From the human T2T-CHM13v2.0 reference genome, Homo sapiens, in the NCBI RefSeq assembly GCF_009914755.1, contig NC_060947.1: 64,000 nucleotides of DNA. One strand, written 5' to 3'. This document shows, one piece after another, positions 20,825 to 34,300 of the stretch. The stretch's first letter is position 1. Each line of letters begins with the position of its first letter. Made by a program: the position numbers and the translations under genes. Below the pieces are notes generated by a model that did not search any database, had not been told where the DNA came from, and worked only from the letters and a program-made list of their open reading frames with translations.

Positions 20825-22181
20825 ATTTTTAAAAACAGCTTTATTGAGATATAATTCGCATACCATACAAACAACCCCTTTAAAATATATAATTTGATAT
20901 TTCTGGTATATTACAGGTACGTGCAAACATCACCACAGTCAATTTTAAAGCATTTCATCACCTCAAAAAGAAACCATGTATTCTTTAGATATCACCCCAG
21001 TAACAACCCATTTGCCTTCCTCCAACCCTAAACAACCACTAGTGTACTTTTTGTATCTATAAATTCCTCTGTTTTGGACTTTCATATGAATGGAATAATA
21101 CAATATCTGGCCTTTTGCGACAGGCTTTATTCACATAGCGTAATATTTTCAAGGTTCATTCATGTTGCATTTCAAGGTTCGTTCATGTAACATGTATTAG
21201 TACTTCAATTATTTTTATGGTCAAACTATTTTCCGTTGTATGAATGTACCACATTTTGTCCATCCATTCATCTATTGAGGAAGAATTTGAGTTGTTTTCA
21301 CCTTTCGACTGTTATAAAAAATGCTGTTATAAACACACATTACAAGTTTCTTTGTTGATATATGTTTTCATTTCTCAGGGTTTGGTATGTTTGAGTAGAA
21401 TTGCTAGGTCATATGGTAATTCTATGTTTACCTCATTGGGGAGTCTCCAAACTGTTTTCCACAGTGATTACATGGTTATATTTCCACCAGAAATGCAGTA
21501 GAATACCAATATTTGCACATACTCACCAACAATTAATTTTTCTTAATAGTAGCCATCTGTCTTAGTTCCTTCAGGCCACTTGAAGAAAATATCTTAGCCT
21601 GGGTAATTTATAAACAATACAATTTTATTTCTTACAGTGCTGTAGGCTGGGAAGTCCAAGGTCAAGTCATCTGCAGATTTGGTGTCTGGAGAGGGCCCAC
21701 TCACAGATAATGCCTTTTATGTGCCTTCACATAGTACAAGAGGAAAATAAACTCTTTCTGGCCTCTTTTATAAGGACACTAATCCCTTTCATAGGGGGCT
21801 GTAATTACTTTTTAAAGACCACACTTCTTAATACTATTGCACTGGGGAGTTAGGTTTCAACATGTGAGTCTTGGGTGGACACAAACACTCAGAATATAGC
21901 ACCATTCTAGTGGATATGAAGTGATAAATTGTGGTTTTGAGTTGCATTTTCCTAACAACTAATGATTTTGAACATCTTTTCATGTTCTTATTGGCTAATT
22001 GTATATCTTCTTTGGAGAAATGTCTGTTCAAATGTCTTTTGCCTATTTTTGAATTGTGTTGTTTTTTTGGTTGTTGTTGAGTTGCAGGAACACTTTACCT
22101 ATTCTGGATATTAATCCCTTATTAGGTATATTATTTGCATATATATATATTCTTCTTTTCTCTGTGCTATCTTTTTACTTT
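20825..22181 (-). mobile_element. Second L1MB (L1MB7/8-like), part 1; resumes at 33263
   Basis: aacagctttattgagatataattc 3'-end motif; interrupted by MLT1A and L1PB1. Confidence 0.75.
21558..21901 (-). mobile_element. MLT1A-type MaLR solo LTR
   Basis: tgtcttagttc...ggctgggaagtccaag...agaatatagca termini; 5-bp TSD ccatc/ccatt. Confidence 0.85.
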
Positions 22182-22793
22182 TGTAAAAAAATTTATTTCC
22201 ATACATTTTTGGGGAACAGATGATATTTTGTTACATAAGTAAGTTCTTTAGTGGTGATTTCTGAGATTTTGGTGCACCCATCAACTGAGCAGTACACACT
22301 GAGCCCAATTTATAGTCTTTTATCCTTCACCCCCCTTCACCCATCCCCCGAGTCCCCCAAGTCCACTGTATTATCCTTATGTCTTTGCATCCTCATAGCT
22401 TAGCTCCCATTATAAGTGAGAACATACAATGTTTGATTATTCATTCGTGAGTTACTTTACTTAGAATATTAGTCTCTAGTCCCATCAAAGTTGTTGTGAA
22501 TGCCATTATTTCGTTCCTTTTTATTGCTGAGTTGTATTCCATCATATATATATACACACACATATATACATATGTGTATACACATATACATACACATATA
22601 TATGTATCAAATTCTCTATCTACTCATTGATTGAAGGGCATATGGGCTGGTTCCATATTTTTGCAATTGCAAATTGTGCTGCTATAAATCTGCAGGTGCA
22701 GGTATCTTTTTCATATAATAAATTATTTTCTTCTAGGTAGATAACCAGTAGTGGGATTGGTGAATCAAATGGTAGTTCTACCTTTAGTTCTTT
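22182..22793 (-). mobile_element. L1PB1 3' end, part 1
   Basis: ttttggggaacag...aagttctttagtggtgatttctgagattttggtgcacccatc is diagnostic of L1PB; left TSD tctttttacttt at 22170-22181. Confidence 0.9.
22544..22605. repeat. (TA)n/(CA)n compound microsatellite
   Basis: tatatatatacacacacatatatacatatgtgtatac... Confidence 0.85.
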
Positions 22794-22798
22794 TTTTT

Positions 22799-22980
22799 AT
22801 GTAAATACGTGATATTCATTTCAGGTATGCTCTACAGGCAATCGGTTATGAAACAGAAATGCATATTCACAGGGGCTTAGCTATTATTACATCAGAAAGG
22901 TGACTTTCCAAGCCCAGCTGCTACAAACACTTTATAATATTTTTATCAATTATCCTGTATAATACACAATGTTGATAAAT
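22799..22980 (-). other. 3'-transduced unique sequence carried by the full-length L1
   Basis: Non-L1 sequence between two T-tracts, lying inside the TSD pair 22778-22793 / 29163-29178. Confidence 0.85.
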
Positions 22981-23208
22981 TTTCTTTATTTTATTTTATT
23001 ATTATTATACTTTAAGCTTTAGGGTACATGTTCACAATGTGCAGGTTAGTTACGTATGTATACATGTGCCATGTTGGTGTGCGGCACCCATTAACTCGTC
23101 ATTTAGCATTAGGTATATCTCCTAATGCTATCCCTACCCCCTTCCCCCACCCCACAACAGGCCCCGGAGTGTGATGTTCCCCTTCCTGTGCCCATGTGTT
23201 CTCATTGT

Positions 23209-27034
<3,826 letters not shown>

Positions 27035-27098
27035 TATGATGCCAGCTGGTTATTTTGGTCGTTAGTTGATGCACTTTTTGTCCTAGCCTTGATGGTTT

Positions 27099-28116
27099 TT
27101 ACATTTTCGCATGTTTTTGCAGTGGCTGGTACTGGTTGCTCCTTTCCATGTTTAGTGCTTCCTTCAGGAGCTCTTTTAGGGCAGGCCTGGTGGTGACAAA
27201 ATCTCTCAGCATTTGCTTGTCTGTAAAGTATTTTATTTCTCCTTCACTTATGAAGCTTAGTTTGGCTGGATATGAAATTCTGGGTTGAAAATTCTTTTTT
27301 TTAGGAATGTTGAATATCGGCCCCCACTCTCTTCTGGCTTGTAGAGTTTCTGCTGAGAGATCAGCTGTTAGTCTGATGGGCTTCCCTTTGTGGGTAACCC
27401 AACCTTTCTCTCTGGCTGCCCTTAACATTTTTTCCTTCATTTCAACTTTGGTGAATCTGACAATTATGTTTCTTGGAGTTGTTCTTCTCGAGGAGTTTCT
27501 TTGTGACATTCTCTGTGTTTCCTGAATCTGAATGTTGGCCTGCCTTGCTAGATTGGGGAAGTTCTCCTGGATAATATCCTGCAGAGTGTTTTCCAACTTG
27601 GTTCCATTCTCCCCATCACTTTCAGGTGCACCAATCAGATGTAGATTTGGTGTTTTCACATAGTCCCACATTTCTTGGAGGCTTTGTTCGTTTCTTTTTA
27701 TTCTTTTTTCTCTAAACTTCCCTTCTCACTTCATTTCATTCATTTCATCTTCCATCACTGATACCCTTTCTTCCAGTTGATCACATCGGCTCCTGAGGCT
27801 TCTGCATTCTTCACGTAGTTCTCAAACCTTGGCTTTCAGCTCCATCAGCTCCTTTAAAGACTTCTCTGCATTGGTTATTCTAGTTATCCATTCGTTCAAT
27901 TTTTTTTTCAAAGTTTTTAACTTCTTTGCCGTTGGTTTGAATTTCCTCCTGTAGCTCGTAGTAGTTTGATCGTTTGAAGCCTTCTTCTCTCAGCTTGTCA
28001 AAGTCATTCTTCATCCAGCTTTGTTCCATTGCTGGTGAGGAGCTGCATTCCTTTGGAGGAGGAGAGGCCCTCTGCTTTTTAGAGTTTCCAGTTTTTCTGA
28101 TCTGTTTTTTCCCCAT
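27099..28116 (-). pseudogene. Disrupted L1 ORF1 of copy B
   Basis: MGKKQIRKTGNSKKQ... frameshifts near the T-run at ~27900; C-terminal part ends ...QPLQKHAKM*. Confidence 0.95.
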
Positions 28117-29158
28117 CTTTGTGGCTTATCTACTTTTGGTCTTTGATGATGGTGACGTACAGAAGGGTTTTTGGTGTGGATGTCCTTTCTGTTTGTTAGT
28201 TTTCCTTCTAACAGACAGGACCCTCAGCTGCAGGTCTGTTGGAGCTTGCTAGAGGTCCACTCCATACCCTGTTTGCCTGGGCATCAGCAGTGGTGGCTGC
28301 AGAACAGTGGTGGCTGTAGAACAGTGCATCTTGGTGAACCACAAATGCTGCTGCCTGATTGTTCCTCTGGAAGTTTTGTCTCAGAGGAGTACCCGGCCGT
28401 GTGAGGTGTCAGTCTACCCCTACTGGGCGTGCCTCTCAGTTAGGCTGCTCGGGGGTCAAGGACCCACTTGAGGAGGCAATCTGCCCATTCTCAGATTTCC
28501 AGCTGTATGTTGGGAGAACCACTACTCTCTTCAAAGCTGTCAGACAGGGACATTTAAGTCTGCAGAGGTTACTGCTGTCTTTTTGTTTGTCTGTGCCCTG
28601 CCCCCAGAGGTGGAGCCTACAGAGGCAGGCAGGCCTCCTTGAGCTGTGTTGGGCTCCACCCAGTTCGAGCTTCCCAGCTGCTTTGTTTACCTAATCAAGC
28701 CTGGGCAATGGCAGGCGCCCCTCCCCCAGCCTCACTGCCACCTTGCAGTTTGATCTCAGACTGCTGTGCTAGCAATCAGCGAGACTCCATGGGCGTAGGA
28801 CCCTCTGAGCCAGGTGCGGCATATAATCTCCTGGTGTGCCAGTTTTTAAGCCCATTGGAAAAGCAGAGTATTAGGGTGGGAGTGACCCGATTTTCCAGGT
28901 GCCCTCTCTCACCCCTTTCTTTGACTAGGAAAGGGAACTCCCTGACCCCTTATGCTTCCCGAGTGAGGCAATGCCTCGCCCTGCTTCAGCTCGTGCACGG
29001 TGTGCTGCACCCACTGTCCTGCACCCACTGTCTGGCACTCCCTAGTGAGATGAGTCTAGTACCTCAGATGGAAATGCAGAAATCACCCATCTTCTGCGTC
29101 ACTCACACTGGGAGCTGTAGACCGGAGCTGTTCCTATTCGGCCATCTTGGCTCCACCC
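28117..29158 (-). promoter_or_regulatory. L1 5' UTR with internal sense and antisense promoters; YY1 site at ~29141-29149
   Basis: gccatcttg (CAAGATGGC on the minus strand) near the 5' end; many CpGs have decayed. Confidence 0.7.
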
Positions 29159-29172
29159 GATACTATTTTTAG
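28708..29172 (+). CDS. ORF0: L1 antisense ORF0, open and extended (154 aa); expression unknown
   Basis: MAGAPPPASLPPCSLISDCCASNQRDS matches the primate L1 ORF0 N-terminus; gcaATGg context; stop at 29170-29172. Confidence 0.55.
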   Translation: MAGAPPPASLPPCSLISDCCASNQRDSMGVGPSEPGAAYNLLVCQFLSPLEKQSIRVGVTRFSRCPLSPLSLTRKGNSLTPYASRVRQCLALLQLVHGVLHPLSCTHCLALPSEMSLVPQMEMQKSPIFCVTHTGSCRPELFLFGHLGSTRYYF

Positions 29173-32100
29173 TTCTTTAAGGAATCTTCACACTGTTTTC
29201 ATAGTGGTTGTACTTGTTTACATTCCCAACGGCAGTGTAGAAGTGTTCCCTTTTCACCATATCCACGACAAGATCTATTATTTTTTGATTTTTTGATTAT
29301 GGCCATTCTTGCAGAAGTAAGGTGACATTGCATTGTGGTTTTGATTTGCATTTTCCTGATCATTAATGATGTTTTGCATTTTTTTCATACATTCGTTGGC
29401 TATTTGTATATATTCTTTTGAGAATTGTCTATTCATGTCCTTAGTCTGCATTTTGATGGGATTGTTTGCTTTTTTCTTGCTAATTTGTTTGAGTTTCTTG
29501 AAGATTCTGCATATTAGTCCTTTGTTGCATGTATAGATTGTGAAGGTTTTCTCACACTCTGTGGGTGGTCTATTTACTCTGCTGACATTTTTTTTTTCCT
29601 GTGCAAAAGCTCTTTAGTTTAATTAAGTCCCAGCTATTTATTTTTGTTTTTGTTGCATTTGCTTTTGAGTTCTTGGTCATAATGTTTTTGCCTAACTCAA
29701 TATCTAGAAGGCTTTTTTCAATGTTATTTTCTAAAATTTTTACAGTTTCAGTTCTTAGATATAAGTCCTTGATCCATCCTGAGTTGATTTTTGTATAAGG
29801 TTAGAGATGAGGATCCAGTTTCATTCTCCTACATGGGGCTTGCCAATTATCTCAGCACCATTTGTTGAAAAGGGTGTCCTTTCCCCACTATATGTTTCAT
29901 TTGCTTTGTCGAACATCAGTTGGCTGTAAGTATTTGGCTTTATTTCTGGGTTCTGTCTTTGGTTCCATTGGTCTATGTGCCTATTTTTATGCAAGTACCA
30001 TGCTTTTTTTAAATGAATATGGCCTTATAGTATAGTTTGAAGTCGAGTATTGTGATACTTCCAGATTTATTCTTTTTGCTTAGTCTTGCCTTGGCTATGC
30101 AGGCTCTTTTTTGGTTCCATATTAATTTTAAGATTGTTTTTTCTAGTTCTATGAAGAAATGATTGTGATATTTTAATGGGAATTGCATTGAGTTTGTAGA
30201 TTGCTTTTGGCAGTATGATCATTTTCACAATGTTGATTCTACCCATCTATGAACATGGAAAGTGTTTTCATTTGTTTGTGTCATCTATGATTTCCTTCAG
30301 CAGTGTTTTGTAGTTTTTCTTGTAGAGGTCTTTCACCTCCTTGGTTAGGTATATTCCTAAGTATTTTATTTTAATTTTTTTGTAGCTATTGTAAAAGGGG
30401 TTTAGTTCTTTATTTGATTATCATTTTGGTCACTGCTGCAGTACAGCAGAGCTACTGATTTGTGTACATTAATTTTGTATCCTAAAATTTTGCTGAATTT
30501 ATGAGTGCTAGGAGCTTTTTGGATGAGTCTTTAGGGTTTTCTGTGTATGCAGTCAGATTATTAACAAGCAGACAGTTTGATTTTCTCTTTAGTTATTTGG
30601 ATTCCCTTTATTTATTTCTTCCTCTTGTCTGATTGCTCTGGCTAGGAATTCCAGTACTATGTTGAATAGAAGTGGTGAGAGTGAGCAGTCTTGTCTTGTT
30701 CCAATTCTCAGAGGGAATGTTTTCAACCTTACACCATTCAGTATTATGTTGAATGTGTGTTTATCATAGATAACTTTTATTACATTGAGGTATGTACCTT
30801 GTATGCTGATTTTCCTGAGGGTTGTAATCATAAAATGATGCTGGTTTTTGTCAAATGGTTTTTCTCCATCTATTGAGATGATCATGTGATTTTTACTTAT
30901 ATTTCTGTTTATGTGGTGTATCACATTTATTGAGTTTTGTATGTTAAAACATCCCTGCATCCCTGGTATAAAACTCACTTGATCATGGTGGATTATCCTT
31001 TCTATATGCTGTTGGATTTTGTTAGCTAGTATTTTATTGAAGCTTTTTGCATCTATGTTCATCAGAGATATTGGTCTGTAGTTTTCTCTTTTTGTTATGT
31101 CCTTTTCTGGTTTTGGTATTAGGGTAATACTGGCTCTGTAGAATGATTTAGGGAGGACTCCTTGTTCTACCTTGTGGAATAGTGTCAATAGGATTGGTAC
31201 CAATTCTTCTTTGAATGTTTGACAGATTTCAGTCGTGAATCCATCTGGAACCTTTTTTTATGGTAATTTTTTATTACCATTTCAATCTTGCTCCTTGTTA
31301 TTGGTCTGTTCAGGGTTTCTAATTCTTCCTGTTTTAAGCTAGGAGGGTTGTATATTTCCAGGAATTTATCCATCTCTTCTAGGTTATCTATCTTGTGTGC
31401 ATACAGGTGTGTTCATAGTAGCCTTGAATGATCTTTTCTATTTCTGTGGTATCACTTGTAATATCTCCCATTTCATTTCTAATTGAGCTTATTTGGATCT
31501 TCTCTCTTCTTTTTATGGTTAATCTTGCTAATGGTCTATAAATTTTATTTATCTTTTCAAAGAACCAGCTTTATGTTTCATTTATCTTTTGTGTCTTTTT
31601 TTCAATTCCATGTAGTTCTGCTCTGATCTTGGTTATTTCTTTTCTTCTGGTGGGTTTGGATTTGGTTTGCTCTTGTTTTTCCAGTTTGTTGCGGTGTGAC
31701 CTTGGATTGTCCATTTGTGCTCCTTCAGACTTTTTGAGGTAGGCATTGAAGGCTATGAACTTTCCTCTTAGCACATCCTTTGCTGTATCCCAGAGGTTTT
31801 GGTAGGCTGTGCCACTATTATTGTTAAGTTTGAAAAATTTTTAAATTTCCATCTTGATTTCGCTGTTGACCCAATGATCATTCAGAAGCAGGTTATTTAA
31901 TTTCCATGTAGTTGCATGGTTTTGAAGGTTTCTTTTGGAATTTGTTTTCAATTTTATTCCACTGTGTTCTGAGAAACAGTGTGATATAATTTAGATTTTC
32001 TTAAATTTATTAAAACTTGTTTTGTGGTGTATCATATGGTCTATCTTGGAGAACGTTCCATGCACTGATGAATAGAATGTATATTCTGCAGCTGTTGGGT

Positions 32101-33207
32101 AGAATGTTCTGTAAGTAACTGTTAAGTCCATTTGTTCTAGTGTATAGTTTAAATCCATTGTTTCTTTGCTAACTTTTTGTCTTGGTGACTGATCTAGTGC
32201 TGTCAGTGGAGTATTGAATTCCCCCACTATTATTGTGTTGCTGTCTATCTCATTTCTTAGGTCTAGTAGTAATTGTTTTGTAAATCTGGGAGCTCCAGTG
32301 TTAGGTGCATATATATTTAGGACTGTGATATTTTCCTCTTGGAAAAAGCCTTTTATCATTATATAATGTCCTCCTTTTTCTTTTTAGACTGCTGTTGCTT
32401 TGCTGTTTGTTTTGTTTAATATAAGAATAGCTACTCCTGCTCACTTTTGGTTACCATTTACATAGAATGTCTTTTTACACCTTTTTACCTTAAGTTTATG
32501 TGAGTCCTTATGTGTTACGTGAGTCTCTTGAAGACAGCAGATACTTGATTGGTTAATTCTTATCCATTCTGCCATTCTTTATTTTTTAAGTGGAACATTT
32601 AGGTCATTTACATTCAATGTTACTATTGAGATGTGAGATGCTATTCGTTTTGCTAATTGTTGCCTGAATACCTTGTTTTTTTATTCATTGTGTTATTTTT
32701 TATAGGCCCTGTGAGATTTATGCTTTAAGGAGGTTATGTTCTGGTGTATTTCAAGGATTTGTTTCAAGATTTAGAGCTGCTTTCAGCAGTTCTTATAATG
32801 CTGGCTTGGTAGTGGCAAATTCTCCTGGAATTTGTTTGTCTGAAAAAGTCTTTATCTTTTCTTCATTTATGAAGTTTAGTTTCACTGGATAGAAAATTCC
32901 TGGCTGATAATTGCTTTGTTTAAGAAGACTAAAGATAGAATCTGAATCCCTTCTGGCTTGTAGGATTTCTGCTGAGAAATCTGCAGTTAATCTGATAGAT
33001 TTTTCTTTATAGGTTACCTGATGCTTTTGGCTCACAGATCTCAAAATTCTTCCTTTTACCTTGACTTCAGATAACCTGATGACTATGTGGCTAGGTGATG
33101 TTGTTTTCATAATGAATTTTCCAGTTGTTCTTTGAGCTTCTTGTATTTGAATGTCTAGATCTCTAGCAAGCCCAAGGAAGTTTTCTTCAATTATTTTCCC
33201 AAATATG
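29163..33207 (-). mobile_element. L1PB1 part 2 (ORF2 and partial ORF1), 5'-truncated
   Basis: Continues 22793; peptides at 30589..31203, 31991..32359 and 32793..33110; right TSD tctttttacttt at 33263-33274. Confidence 0.9.
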
Positions 33208-33262
33208 GTTGCCGTCTGATGAGCCGTATCTGTCCCTTAAGAAAGAGCTGTGGTCAGTGGCC
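33208..33262 (-). pseudogene. FOLR1: 55-nt fragment resembling the FOLR1 mRNA 5' end, fused to L1PB1
   Basis: Minus strand GGCCACTGACCACAGCTCTTTCTTAAGGGACAGATACGGCTCATCAGACGGCAAC versus recalled FOLR1 GCCACTGACCACAGCTCTTTCTTCAGGGACAGACATGGCTCAGCGGATGACAAC (47/54 by manual alignment from memory). Confidence 0.7.
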
Positions 33263-34300
33263 TCTTTTTACTTTCTTGATGGTATCTTTTGATGCATAAA
33301 AGCTTCTGATTTTGATAAAGCTTATTTTTTATTGTTCATGTTTTTTATGTCCTGTCTAAGAGTCTTTTACCAAATCCTAGATCATAAAGATGTGTCCTTT
33401 TGTTTTCTTCTAATAATTTTATATTATTTTTACATTTAGGTAATTGAACCATCTTGATTTAGTAGTGTGAGGTAAGAGTTCAATTTCAATTTTTTACATA
33501 TGCCTGTTTAGTTGTCTCAGCACCATTTGTGGGTAAGACTGTTTCCCATTGAAAGGTATATTAATTTCCTAGGTCTACTATAACAAGTTACCACACACTA
33601 GATGGCTTAAACAGTTTATTGTCTTACAGTTCTGGAGGCCAGATGTTTCACGTTAAAGTGCTGCCAAGGCCATGCTCCCTTTGAATGGACTAGGAGAGGA
33701 TTTGTTCCAGGCTTCCCCTAGCTTCTGGTAGGAGGATTTTTCCTAGCTTTCTCATAGTTTCTGGTAGTTTTTTTGGCTTGTGGCAGCATAACTCCAATAT
33801 TCACATGGCATTCTCCCTGTATGTGTGTTTGTGTCCAAATTTATTTAAAAGTACACCTGTCATCTTGCAATAGAGATCCATCCTACTCCATTTTAACCTC
33901 ATCTTAACTAATTATATTGGAAACAACCATATTTCCAAATAAGGCCACATTTTGAGGCACTAGGGGGTTTGACTTCAACATATGAATTTCTGGGGAACAC
34001 AATTCATACCATAACAAAGTATCTTGGTACGCTTTTCTGAAATTAGCTGATCATAGATGTATGGGTTCATTTCTGGACTCTCAAATCTATTTCATTGATC
34101 TATCTGTCCATACTTGTGCTAGAACCACACTGTGATGATTACGTTTGCTTTGTAGTAAGATTTGAAATCAGTAAGTGTAAATTCTCTATTTTATTCTTTC
34201 TTTAAGTATTGTTTTAGCCATTCTGTGTTTCTTGTGACTCCATATGAATTTCAGAATCAGCTTGTCAATTATTACAAAAATGTCAGCTGAGATTTTGTTC
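33263..34300 (-). mobile_element. Second L1MB, part 2 (interrupted by MLT1B)
   Basis: Continues 22181 (ctttttactttcttgatggtatcttttgatgca). Confidence 0.75.
33557..34016 (-). mobile_element. MLT1B-type MaLR solo LTR
   Basis: tatattaatttcctagg...tcttacagttctggagg...acaattcataccataaca. Confidence 0.8.

What the first reader, a model, noticed from the sequence alone, without database searches (positions are those of the whole stretch)
33208..33274. Putative FOLR1 mRNA / L1PB1 template-switch chimera
Seen: a 55-nt GC-richer non-L1 insert lies between the 5'-truncation point of L1PB1 (33207) and its right TSD (tctttttacttt, 22170-22181 / 33263-33274), so it arrived with the insertion. In L1 orientation it reads G-GCCACTGACCACAGCTCTTTCTTAAGGGACAGAT-ACG-GCT-CAT-CAG-ACG-GCA-AC. 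From memory this matches the short 5' UTR and first codons (MAQRMT) of folate receptor alpha transcripts from the proximal P4 promoter at 47/54 nt, a divergence plausible for L1PB age. Established: L1 RT can switch templates to make 5' cellular-RNA/3' L1 chimeras (classically U6/L1), and it often copies the cap as an extra G. Inference: RT jumped onto a capped FOLR1 mRNA and the extra leading G may be the cap, recording FOLR1 expression and its start site in the ancestral germline or early embryo.
Basis: partly seen in the sequence, partly recalled or inferred. Interest (0 to 1): 0.8.

Follow-up and report, generated by a model that had tools for sequence, protein, structure and literature searches.

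The report
FOLR1 mRNA start fused to L1
A 54-base copy of the very beginning of the folate receptor alpha (FOLR1) message sits fused to the front of a truncated L1 retrotransposon on the X chromosome, a genuine but already known kind of accident of L1 copying that shows FOLR1 RNA was present in the germ line of an ancient primate.

Summary
Window 33208-33262 is non-L1 DNA lying between a 5'-truncated L1PB-like element and its right target-site duplication (TSD). Read in L1 sense, 54 of its 55 bases match one other place in the human genome, chr11:72118681-72118734, at 47/54 (E 1.3e-9). That place is the 34-base leader plus the first 20 coding bases of FOLR1 (56/56 residues identical to PDB folate receptor alpha). 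No FOLR paralogue matches.

Uninterrupted paralogous copies of the older L1 that was hit carry the 12-base TSD once, so 22182-33262 entered as one insertion. The FOLR1 piece is in sense with the L1. It joins bluntly inside ORF1 (the RRM domain), is not at a splice site, and is preceded by one unmatched G.

Best reading: an mRNA-5'-end/L1 chimera made at the RNA/cDNA level and integrated in one target-primed reverse transcription. The join was most likely an ORF2p template jump; RNA ligation beforehand is not excluded.

Two things could not be tested here: that the piece starts at the P4 transcription start, and that the G copies the cap. This is a new member of a known kind. It is absent by gene name from the 2026 Law and Burns catalogue of 17 mRNA/L1 chimeras. 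Interest is moderate to low.

The parts
33263..33274 (-). 5' (upstream, in L1 sense) copy of the 12-nt target-site duplication, AAAGTAAAAAGA in L1 sense
   Evidence: Identical to 22170-22181. Present once in 5 of 5 uninterrupted paralogous old-L1 copies that span the site.
33262..33262 (-). Extra G (L1 sense) between the TSD and the FOLR1 homology. It is unmatched in FOLR1 genomic DNA (T there) and in the left TSD flank (A at 22169).
   Evidence: Cap-derived origin is inferred, not shown.
33208..33261 (-). 54-nt copy of FOLR1: a 34-nt leader, the start codon (now ACG) and 17 further coding bases. It equals chr11:72118681-72118734 (L002 1501-1554).
   Evidence: 47/54 identical, E 1.3e-9, and the only other hit in the genome. 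The chr11 exon translates to MAQRMTT..., 56/56 identical to PDB 5izq_A folate receptor alpha. Folate_rec exons lie downstream. No hit in 9 kb upstream of each of 5 paralogues.
29161..33207 (-). 5' part of the 5'-truncated L1PB-like element. It begins inside ORF1 (RRM domain) and runs on through ORF2.
   Evidence: 29 related copies read ...GGAAAAC|ATATTTG across the point where this copy switches to FOLR1. The translation matches Pfam Transposase_22 (positions 26-98 of 98) and Tnp_22_dsRBD, and PDB LINE-1 ORF1p. It is collinear with a chr5 copy.
22791..29160 (-). Later nested insertion, not part of the chimera: a full-length younger L1 plus a 171-nt 3' transduction and an A tail, with its own TSD (29163-29175 / 22778-22790).
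22182..22790 (-). 3' part of the L1PB-like element. It ends ...GGAAATAAATTTTTTTACA with only a very short A tail.
   Evidence: One search shows collinearity. Searches show 86-91% identity to 39 other L1 3' ends. In one search, 5 of 8 related copies have the same T-run followed by a short A tail.
22170..22181 (-). 3' (downstream, in L1 sense) copy of the 12-nt TSD

Best explanation
This is a chimeric retrocopy made in a single L1 target-primed reverse transcription (TPRT) event in the germ line or early embryo of an anthropoid-age ancestor.

Proposed sequence of events:
1. ORF2p nicked an older L1 at ...TACTTT/CTTGATGG and primed on an L1PB-like RNA.
2. It copied about 4.66 kb of that RNA, up to a point inside ORF1.
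3. The cDNA then continued on a FOLR1 RNA from position +54 of the short-leader (intron-3/exon-4, 'P4-type') transcript to its 5' end, adding one C opposite the cap or as an untemplated base. This now reads as the extra G.
4. The product was joined to the upstream target end, creating the 12-nt TSD.

I favour an ORF2p template jump for the join between L1 and FOLR1 sequence. The join is blunt, has no visible microhomology, lies mid-exon, and fits an end-to-end jump onto the 3' end of a short FOLR1 5' fragment. Ligation of the two RNAs before reverse transcription would give the same product.

Shown: the FOLR1 origin, the orientation, the single insertion with TSD, the position of the junction, and the absence of splice sites. 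Inferred: the RNA intermediate, the jump, the cap origin of the G, and that the 5' end is a transcription start. The piece has no present function; both ATGs are now ACG.
For: - FOLR1 identity: the only second hit in 3.1 Gb, 47/54, E 1.3e-9. The exon is FOLR1. Paralogues gave no hit; the best chance match had E 0.49.
- One insertion: the 12-nt TSD brackets 22182-33262, and 5 of 5 spanning paralogous copies are uninterrupted there.
- Same sense as the L1.
- L1 truncation exactly at the junction: 29 of 29 related copies continue with L1 sequence upstream of ATATTTG.
- Not splicing: FOLR1 continues ACAGCT (no GT) and the L1 side is preceded by AAAAC (no AG). The exon's real donor lies 149 nt further on.
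- The copy includes 26 nt upstream of an internal tttcttcag|G acceptor-like site, so it is not from an upstream-exon-spliced mRNA (the role of that site is inferred).
- The copy starts at a pyrimidine-purine step (T|G) just downstream of GC/CACCC boxes.
- Divergence of 7/54 (13%, CI 5-25%) is compatible with the L1's own-branch estimate of 8.3%.
- No L1 lies in the held FOLR1 region, which argues against a cis read-through transcript.
- Precedent: Law and Burns 2026 (PMC13174262; passages and Table S5, parts 1-2 read) list 17 mRNA/lncRNA-L1 chimeras. 15 are in sense, and four carry untemplated 5' bases that include G: MAP3K13 G, CREM GGG, ZNF681 TGGG, PALLD GGT.
- FOLR1 is reported as upregulated in human PGC-like and naive ES cells (PMC9128956, one passage).
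Against: - All 54 nt lie within one genomic exon/intron stretch, so no splice junction proves an RNA origin.
- The P4 start site could not be located with the tools. A consensus initiator (GCCACT) would put +1 three bases inside the copy.
- The extra G has other explanations.
- The nick site CTTT/CT matches the L1 endonuclease preference (TTTT/AA, recalled) only in part.
- The A tail is nearly absent, although this is typical of the family.
- Template jump and prior RNA ligation cannot be told apart from the product.
- No orthologous empty or filled site in other primates could be examined.
Confidence: 0.8

Rival explanations
1. The chimeric RNA was made before reverse transcription. A cleaved 5' fragment of FOLR1 mRNA was ligated (RtcB-type ligation, as proposed for U6/L1) to a cleaved L1 RNA, and the joined RNA was then retrotransposed as one template.
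For: The junction is blunt, without microhomology, and at no splice site. Law and Burns name ligation as one of two routes for sense-oriented chimeras (passages).
Against: Ligation has been described for U6, whose 3' end carries a cyclic phosphate. There is no evidence here for such ends on an mRNA fragment. It needs two cleavages and a ligation, against one jump.
Confidence: 0.2
2. The template was an unspliced or intron-retaining FOLR1 pre-mRNA from the upstream promoter, and the 5' end of the piece is simply where reverse transcription stopped. In that case it marks no start site, and the G is an untemplated or mutated base.
For: The copy contains 26 nt that are intronic for upstream-promoter transcripts. 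Most L1-mediated copies are 5'-truncated at arbitrary points. The start site was not verified here.
Against: The copy starts at a T|G pyrimidine-purine step right after GC/CACCC boxes. The literature names a promoter (P4) in front of this exon (review passage; titles). An extra G appears at the end, as in other chimeras that begin at first exons.
Confidence: 0.12
3. DNA-level origin: chr11 DNA was captured as filler during repair of the 5' junction, or there was a later separate insertion of 55 nt precisely between the L1 and the TSD.
For: No splice junction in the piece proves an RNA intermediate.
Against: It would need a 54-nt piece of another chromosome that happens to start at a promoter-proximal position, in sense with the L1, and placed exactly inside the TSD. 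The divergence is the same as the L1's.
Confidence: 0.04
4. Retrotransposition of a read-through transcript from an L1 fragment that once sat in FOLR1 exon 4 (a cis chimera driven by the FOLR1 promoter).
For: Law and Burns describe promoter co-option by intronic L1s (RAP1GDS1; passages).
Against: No L1 sequence lies in the held FOLR1 region, C11:72110000-72120234 and 72120309-72123500. Such an allele would have destroyed the coding exon. The genome-wide search found no second copy of the junction.
Confidence: 0.03

Closest known systems
mRNA/lncRNA-LINE-1 5' chimeric insertions (Law and Burns, Cell Genomics 2026, PMC13174262; 17 loci in hg38)
   Same: A non-repetitive gene-derived piece from the start of a transcript, in sense, fused 5' of an L1 inside one TSD. 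Untemplated G(s) often sit at the extreme 5' end.
   Different: Most catalogued cases carry near-full-length L1s, and six end at splice donors, which the authors read as trans- or cis-splicing. Here the L1 is truncated by about 1.4 kb inside ORF1, and the junction is mid-exon with no donor or acceptor. FOLR1 does not occur in the paper's text or in its 4 readable spreadsheets. The three PDF supplements could not be read.
U6/L1 and other small-RNA/L1 chimeric retrogenes (Buzdin et al. 2002, 2003; seen only as reference-list entries, content recalled)
   Same: The 5' partner is complete at its own 5' end, the 3' partner is a 5'-truncated L1, and both share orientation, a common TSD and a blunt junction. 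They are explained by an RT template switch or by RNA ligation (passages).
   Different: The partner here is a capped pol II mRNA leader, not an abundant small nuclear RNA. Only its first 54 nt are present. It is a single copy in the genome.
L1 5' transduction
   Same: Extra non-L1 sequence lies at the 5' side of an L1, inside the TSD.
   Different: 5' transduction needs a full-length source L1 transcribed from an upstream promoter. Here the L1 is truncated in ORF1 at the junction, and the extra piece comes from a gene that holds no L1.

Membership tests
L1-mediated chimeric retrocopy (5' cellular RNA / 3' L1) | Both parts lie inside one target-site duplication | tested here: met
   12-nt TSD at 22170-22181 and 33263-33274. 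It is present once in 5 of 5 spanning paralogous copies.
L1-mediated chimeric retrocopy (5' cellular RNA / 3' L1) | The 5' part derives from a cellular transcript and has the same orientation as the L1 | tested here: met
   47/54 match to FOLR1 leader plus CDS, plus strand of the gene and sense of the L1. That the template was RNA rather than DNA is inferred.
L1-mediated chimeric retrocopy (5' cellular RNA / 3' L1) | The L1 part extends to the L1 3' end with a poly(A) tail next to the 3' TSD | tested here: inconclusive
   The L1 3' end is present, but the tail is only ACA before a TSD that starts AAAG. 5 of 8 related copies also have a T-run plus a short A tail.
L1-mediated chimeric retrocopy (5' cellular RNA / 3' L1) | The insertion site resembles the L1 endonuclease motif (TTTT/AA on the nicked strand; motif recalled, and given as TT/AAAA) | tested here: inconclusive
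   The nicked strand reads CTTT/CT. In L1 sense this is AG/AAAG, so 3 of the 4 TSD-side bases fit and the two upstream bases do not.
L1-mediated chimeric retrocopy (5' cellular RNA / 3' L1) | The 5' end of the cellular part coincides with the 5' end of the RNA (transcription start) | not testable with these tools
   No CAGE or transcript annotation for chr11 was available, and the primary promoter papers are not held. Indirect evidence only: a T|G start and upstream GC boxes.
Trans- or cis-spliced exon/L1 chimera (Law and Burns model) | The gene part ends at a splice donor and/or the L1 part starts at an acceptor | tested here: not met
   FOLR1 continues ACAGCT after the junction, and its donor is 149 nt downstream. 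The L1 is preceded by GGAAAAC, with no AG.
FOLR1 processed pseudogene | Spliced copy of most of the mRNA with its own poly(A) | tested here: not met
   Only 54 nt of one exon are present, followed directly by L1 ORF1 sequence.

The most novel reading that the evidence does not exclude
The acceptor template was not a full-length FOLR1 mRNA. It was a roughly 54-nt capped, promoter-proximal (paused or prematurely terminated) FOLR1 transcript present in the nucleus where TPRT takes place, and ORF2p jumped end-to-end onto its 3' end. The blunt, homology-free junction at +54 and the cap-like extra G would then record both ends of a short nuclear RNA. Chimeras of this type would be fossils of exact start sites and pause sites in ancestral germ cells.
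Probability: 0.12. Interest if true: 0.6.

Novelty: new member of a known kind. Interest (0 to 1): 0.35.

Why it matters
This is a clean, datable example of L1 reverse transcriptase joining its own RNA to the capped 5' end of a cellular mRNA. It has a mid-exon, splice-independent, homology-free junction, which makes it closer to the classical U6/L1 template-switch class than to the spliced exon/L1 chimeras that dominate the recent catalogue.

If the 5' end is confirmed as the P4 start, the locus is direct sequence evidence that the short-leader FOLR1 transcript was made in germ-line or early-embryo cells some tens of millions of years ago. This agrees with present-day FOLR1 expression in PGC-like and naive pluripotent cells.

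It also shows that MSA-based catalogues miss short (under 60 nt) 5' pieces. It has no functional consequence for the X-linked locus.

Tried and rejected
- Chance similarity is rejected: E 1.3e-9, and the only second hit in the genome.
- A FOLR paralogue or pseudogene as source is rejected. blastn-short against 9 kb upstream of the five other Folate_rec loci on chr11 gave nothing better than E 0.49. Their first coding exons align to FOLR1 only downstream of the copied stretch.
- A small structured RNA is rejected: 0 Rfam matches at E up to 1 in 33150-33330.
- The piece being part of the target is rejected by the paralogous empty sites.
- Microhomology at the junction: a first look suggested a 6-7 nt similar zone. 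In register, the join is blunt (FOLR1 ...CAAC | CATATTT... L1), and 21 of 29 related copies have the C.
- Locating the P4 start in print failed. Three searches gave only review sentences and reference titles. PMC1218689 and PMC169886 are not held.
- Searching the Law and Burns tables by coordinate failed for technical reasons: a positive control also returned 0, so say nothing. Only the gene-name search counts.
One 3.6-kb stretch was used instead.

Full report
**Observation.** On the plus strand the window reads ...caaatatg|gttgccgtctgatgagccgtatctgtcccttaagaaagagctgtggtcagtggcc|tctttttacttt|cttgatgg. The same 12 nt, tctttttacttt, lie at 22170-22181, followed by tgtaaaaaaatttatttcc.... The 55 nt at 33208-33262 have GC 0.545, against 0.346 for the adjacent L1 and 0.253 for the right flank.

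**What the 55 nt are.** The human assembly that holds the window can be searched. With window 33203-33267 (minus strand) as query, the whole 3.1-Gb genome gave 2 places at E up to 10: the window itself and C11:72118681-72118734, plus strand, at 87% over 54 nt, E 1.3e-9.
- The pairwise alignment shows 47/54 identities. The first base of the insert in L1 sense (G, window 33262) faces a T.
- The chr11 sequence continues as an open exon from an ATG 34 nt into the match. It translates to [56 protein letters not shown] and ends at a gt donor.
- This translation is 56/56 identical to PDB 5izq_A, 'Folate receptor alpha'. Folate_rec (PF03024) exons follow at C11:72121809-72122577.
- The same Pfam search located the other family loci on chr11. 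I fetched 9 kb upstream of each. blastn-short with the insert gave nothing better than E 0.49 there, and their first coding exons align with FOLR1 only downstream of the copied stretch.
- Rfam gives no match.

**It arrived with the L1.** Both flanks (up to 22181, and from 33263) belong to an older plus-strand L1. I searched the genome with the right flank and aligned both flanks to the 29 fetched paralogous copies.
- The left flank aligned in 10 of them. In the 5 where it reaches the site (L050, L037, L035, L046, L039), left and right flanks map to the same 12 nt.
- Those copies read ...GTCTTTTTACTTTCTTGATGG... without interruption.

Hence 22182-33262 is one insertion bracketed by a true 12-nt TSD, and the FOLR1 piece is inside it. 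The base before the TSD is A on the left (22169) and C on the right (33262), so the extra G is not part of the duplication as it stands today.

**The L1.** Read on the minus strand, 33206 downward translates as IFGKIIEENF...TTKPAL.
- This matches Pfam Transposase_22 (profile positions 26-98 of 98) and Tnp_22_dsRBD, and PDB LINE-1 ORF1p chains. The element is therefore cut inside the ORF1p RRM domain.
- Twenty-nine related genomic copies (85-87% identical) all continue upstream with L1 sequence...GTTTGGAAAAC|ATATTTGAGG. The chrX copy reads ...GACGGCAAC|CATATTTGGG.
- In register, FOLR1 supplies ...CAAC (to window 33208) and L1 supplies CATATTT (from 33207; 21 of 29 copies have that C). The join is therefore blunt, with no visible microhomology.
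- FOLR1 continues ACAGCT after the junction, and L1 is preceded by AAAAC. Neither a GT donor nor an AG acceptor is present, and the exon's real donor is 149 nt further on.
- Mapping against a chr5 copy shows the element is collinear over 33206-30807 and 30794-29163, then resumes at 22797-22614. The 3' end to 22182 matches 39 other L1 3' ends at 86-91%.
- The gap is a later, nested, full-length younger L1 with a 3' transduction. Without it the L1 part is about 4.66 kb.
- The A tail is almost absent (...AATAAATTTTTTTACA, then a TSD starting AAAG). However, 5 of 8 related copies that I fetched end in the same T-run followed by only 3-8 A.
- I could not verify the name L1PB1, because no repeat library is available.

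**Age.** Over about 1.5 kb, the chrX L1 differs from 20 related copies by 14.9% on average. Those copies differ among themselves by 13.2%, which gives an own-branch estimate of 8.3%. The FOLR1 piece differs from today's gene by 7/54, or 13% (95% CI 5-25%). That figure also contains change on the gene's side. The two values are compatible with simultaneous arrival.

**Mechanism.** The following together define an L1-mediated chimeric retrocopy made at the RNA/cDNA level:
- sense orientation;
- position inside the TSD;
- an L1 truncated exactly at the junction;
- a cellular partner represented only by its extreme 5' part;
- an unmatched G at the very end.

The copied stretch includes 26 nt upstream of a tttcttcag|G acceptor-like site. 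The template was therefore a transcript that started just upstream of this exon, or an unspliced one, and not an mRNA spliced from upstream exons.

A review states that FOLR1 has two TATA-less promoters, P1 and P4 (PMC8750473, one passage). The primary papers (Saikawa 1995; Elwood 1997) were seen only as titles. The sequence itself shows a T|G step at the start of the copy and GC/CACCC boxes within about 95 nt upstream. Against this, an initiator-like GCCACT would place +1 three bases inside the copy.

I favour an ORF2p template jump. Prior RNA ligation is named as the alternative for sense-oriented chimeras by Law and Burns (PMC13174262, passages), and it cannot be excluded from the product. 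Rivals that make the 5' end a random stop on a longer RNA, or that invoke DNA filler or a cis read-through transcript, are less likely. No L1 lies in the held FOLR1 region.

**Comparison with what is known.** Law and Burns (Cell Genomics 2026) catalogue 17 mRNA/lncRNA-L1 chimeras in hg38.
- 15 are in sense, most carry near-full-length L1s, and six end at splice donors (section read in the preprint version; passages).
- Their Table S5 (legend and 15 of the 17 rows read) has a column for 5' untemplated bases: G (MAP3K13), GGG (CREM), TGGG (ZNF681), GGT (PALLD), C (FHIT), T (RAP1GDS1, twice), and longer strings in two rows. An extra G therefore has precedent.
- 'FOLR1' and 'folate' occur 0 times in the main text, and 'FOLR1' 0 times in the 4 readable spreadsheets. 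Three PDF supplements could not be read.
- A library search for FOLR1 + retrotransposon + chimeric gave 7 papers (6 listed), none about such a locus by title or abstract.
- The older Buzdin lists are not held, so I cannot say the locus is unpublished, only that I found no record.

The present case differs from most catalogued mRNA chimeras by its deeply truncated L1 and its splice-independent mid-exon junction. It resembles the U6/L1 class in architecture.

**Biological reading.** If RNA-derived, a heritable insertion requires the FOLR1 transcript in germ-line or early-embryo cells of the ancestor. FOLR1 is listed among genes upregulated in both human PGC-like cells and naive ES cells (PMC9128956, one passage).

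**Verdict.** This is a new member of a known kind, of moderate to low interest.

Noticed in passing
window 22791-29160 (minus strand): A nested full-length younger L1 (5' end GGGTGGAGCCAAGATGG at 29158, first A-rich end near 22981) carries a 171-nt 3' transduction (22978-22808) and a second A tail. It is flanked by a roughly 13-nt TSD, GAACTAAA[AA/GG]TAG (29175-29163 and 22790-22778). The transduced piece matches one other place, C2:35161791-35161960, at 95%. No L1 lies upstream of it there in this assembly, so the source element is absent from the reference: an orphan source.
   Followed up: partly
window 33206-33228 (minus strand): The former FOLR1 start codon (now ACG) is in frame with the remaining ORF1 reading frame. 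At insertion this would have read M-A-x-x-M-T-T-I-F-G-K-I-I-E-E-N-F..., a potential FOLR1-leader/ORF1p C-terminal fusion ORF. This is a one-in-three chance, and no sign of use was seen.
   Followed up: no
window 33208-33228 versus L002 1535-1554: Two of the 7 differences turn FOLR1 ATG codons (Met1, Met5) into ACG in the copy, and codon 3 is CAT (His) against CAG (Gln). Without primate outgroups it cannot be told which side changed. Codons 3 and 5 could preserve an ancestral FOLR1 state.
   Followed up: no
window 22544-22607: An (AT/AC)n microsatellite lies inside the 3' region of the L1PB-like element (repeat finder family D13).
   Followed up: no
L005 and L026 (loci): In two of the 29 related L1 copies, the sequence upstream of the same ORF1 region is not L1. 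L026 shows the 3' end and poly(A) of another L1 about 50 nt upstream of the chrX junction's register, and L005 shows unrelated sequence. These are other truncations or nested insertions near the same part of ORF1.
   Followed up: no
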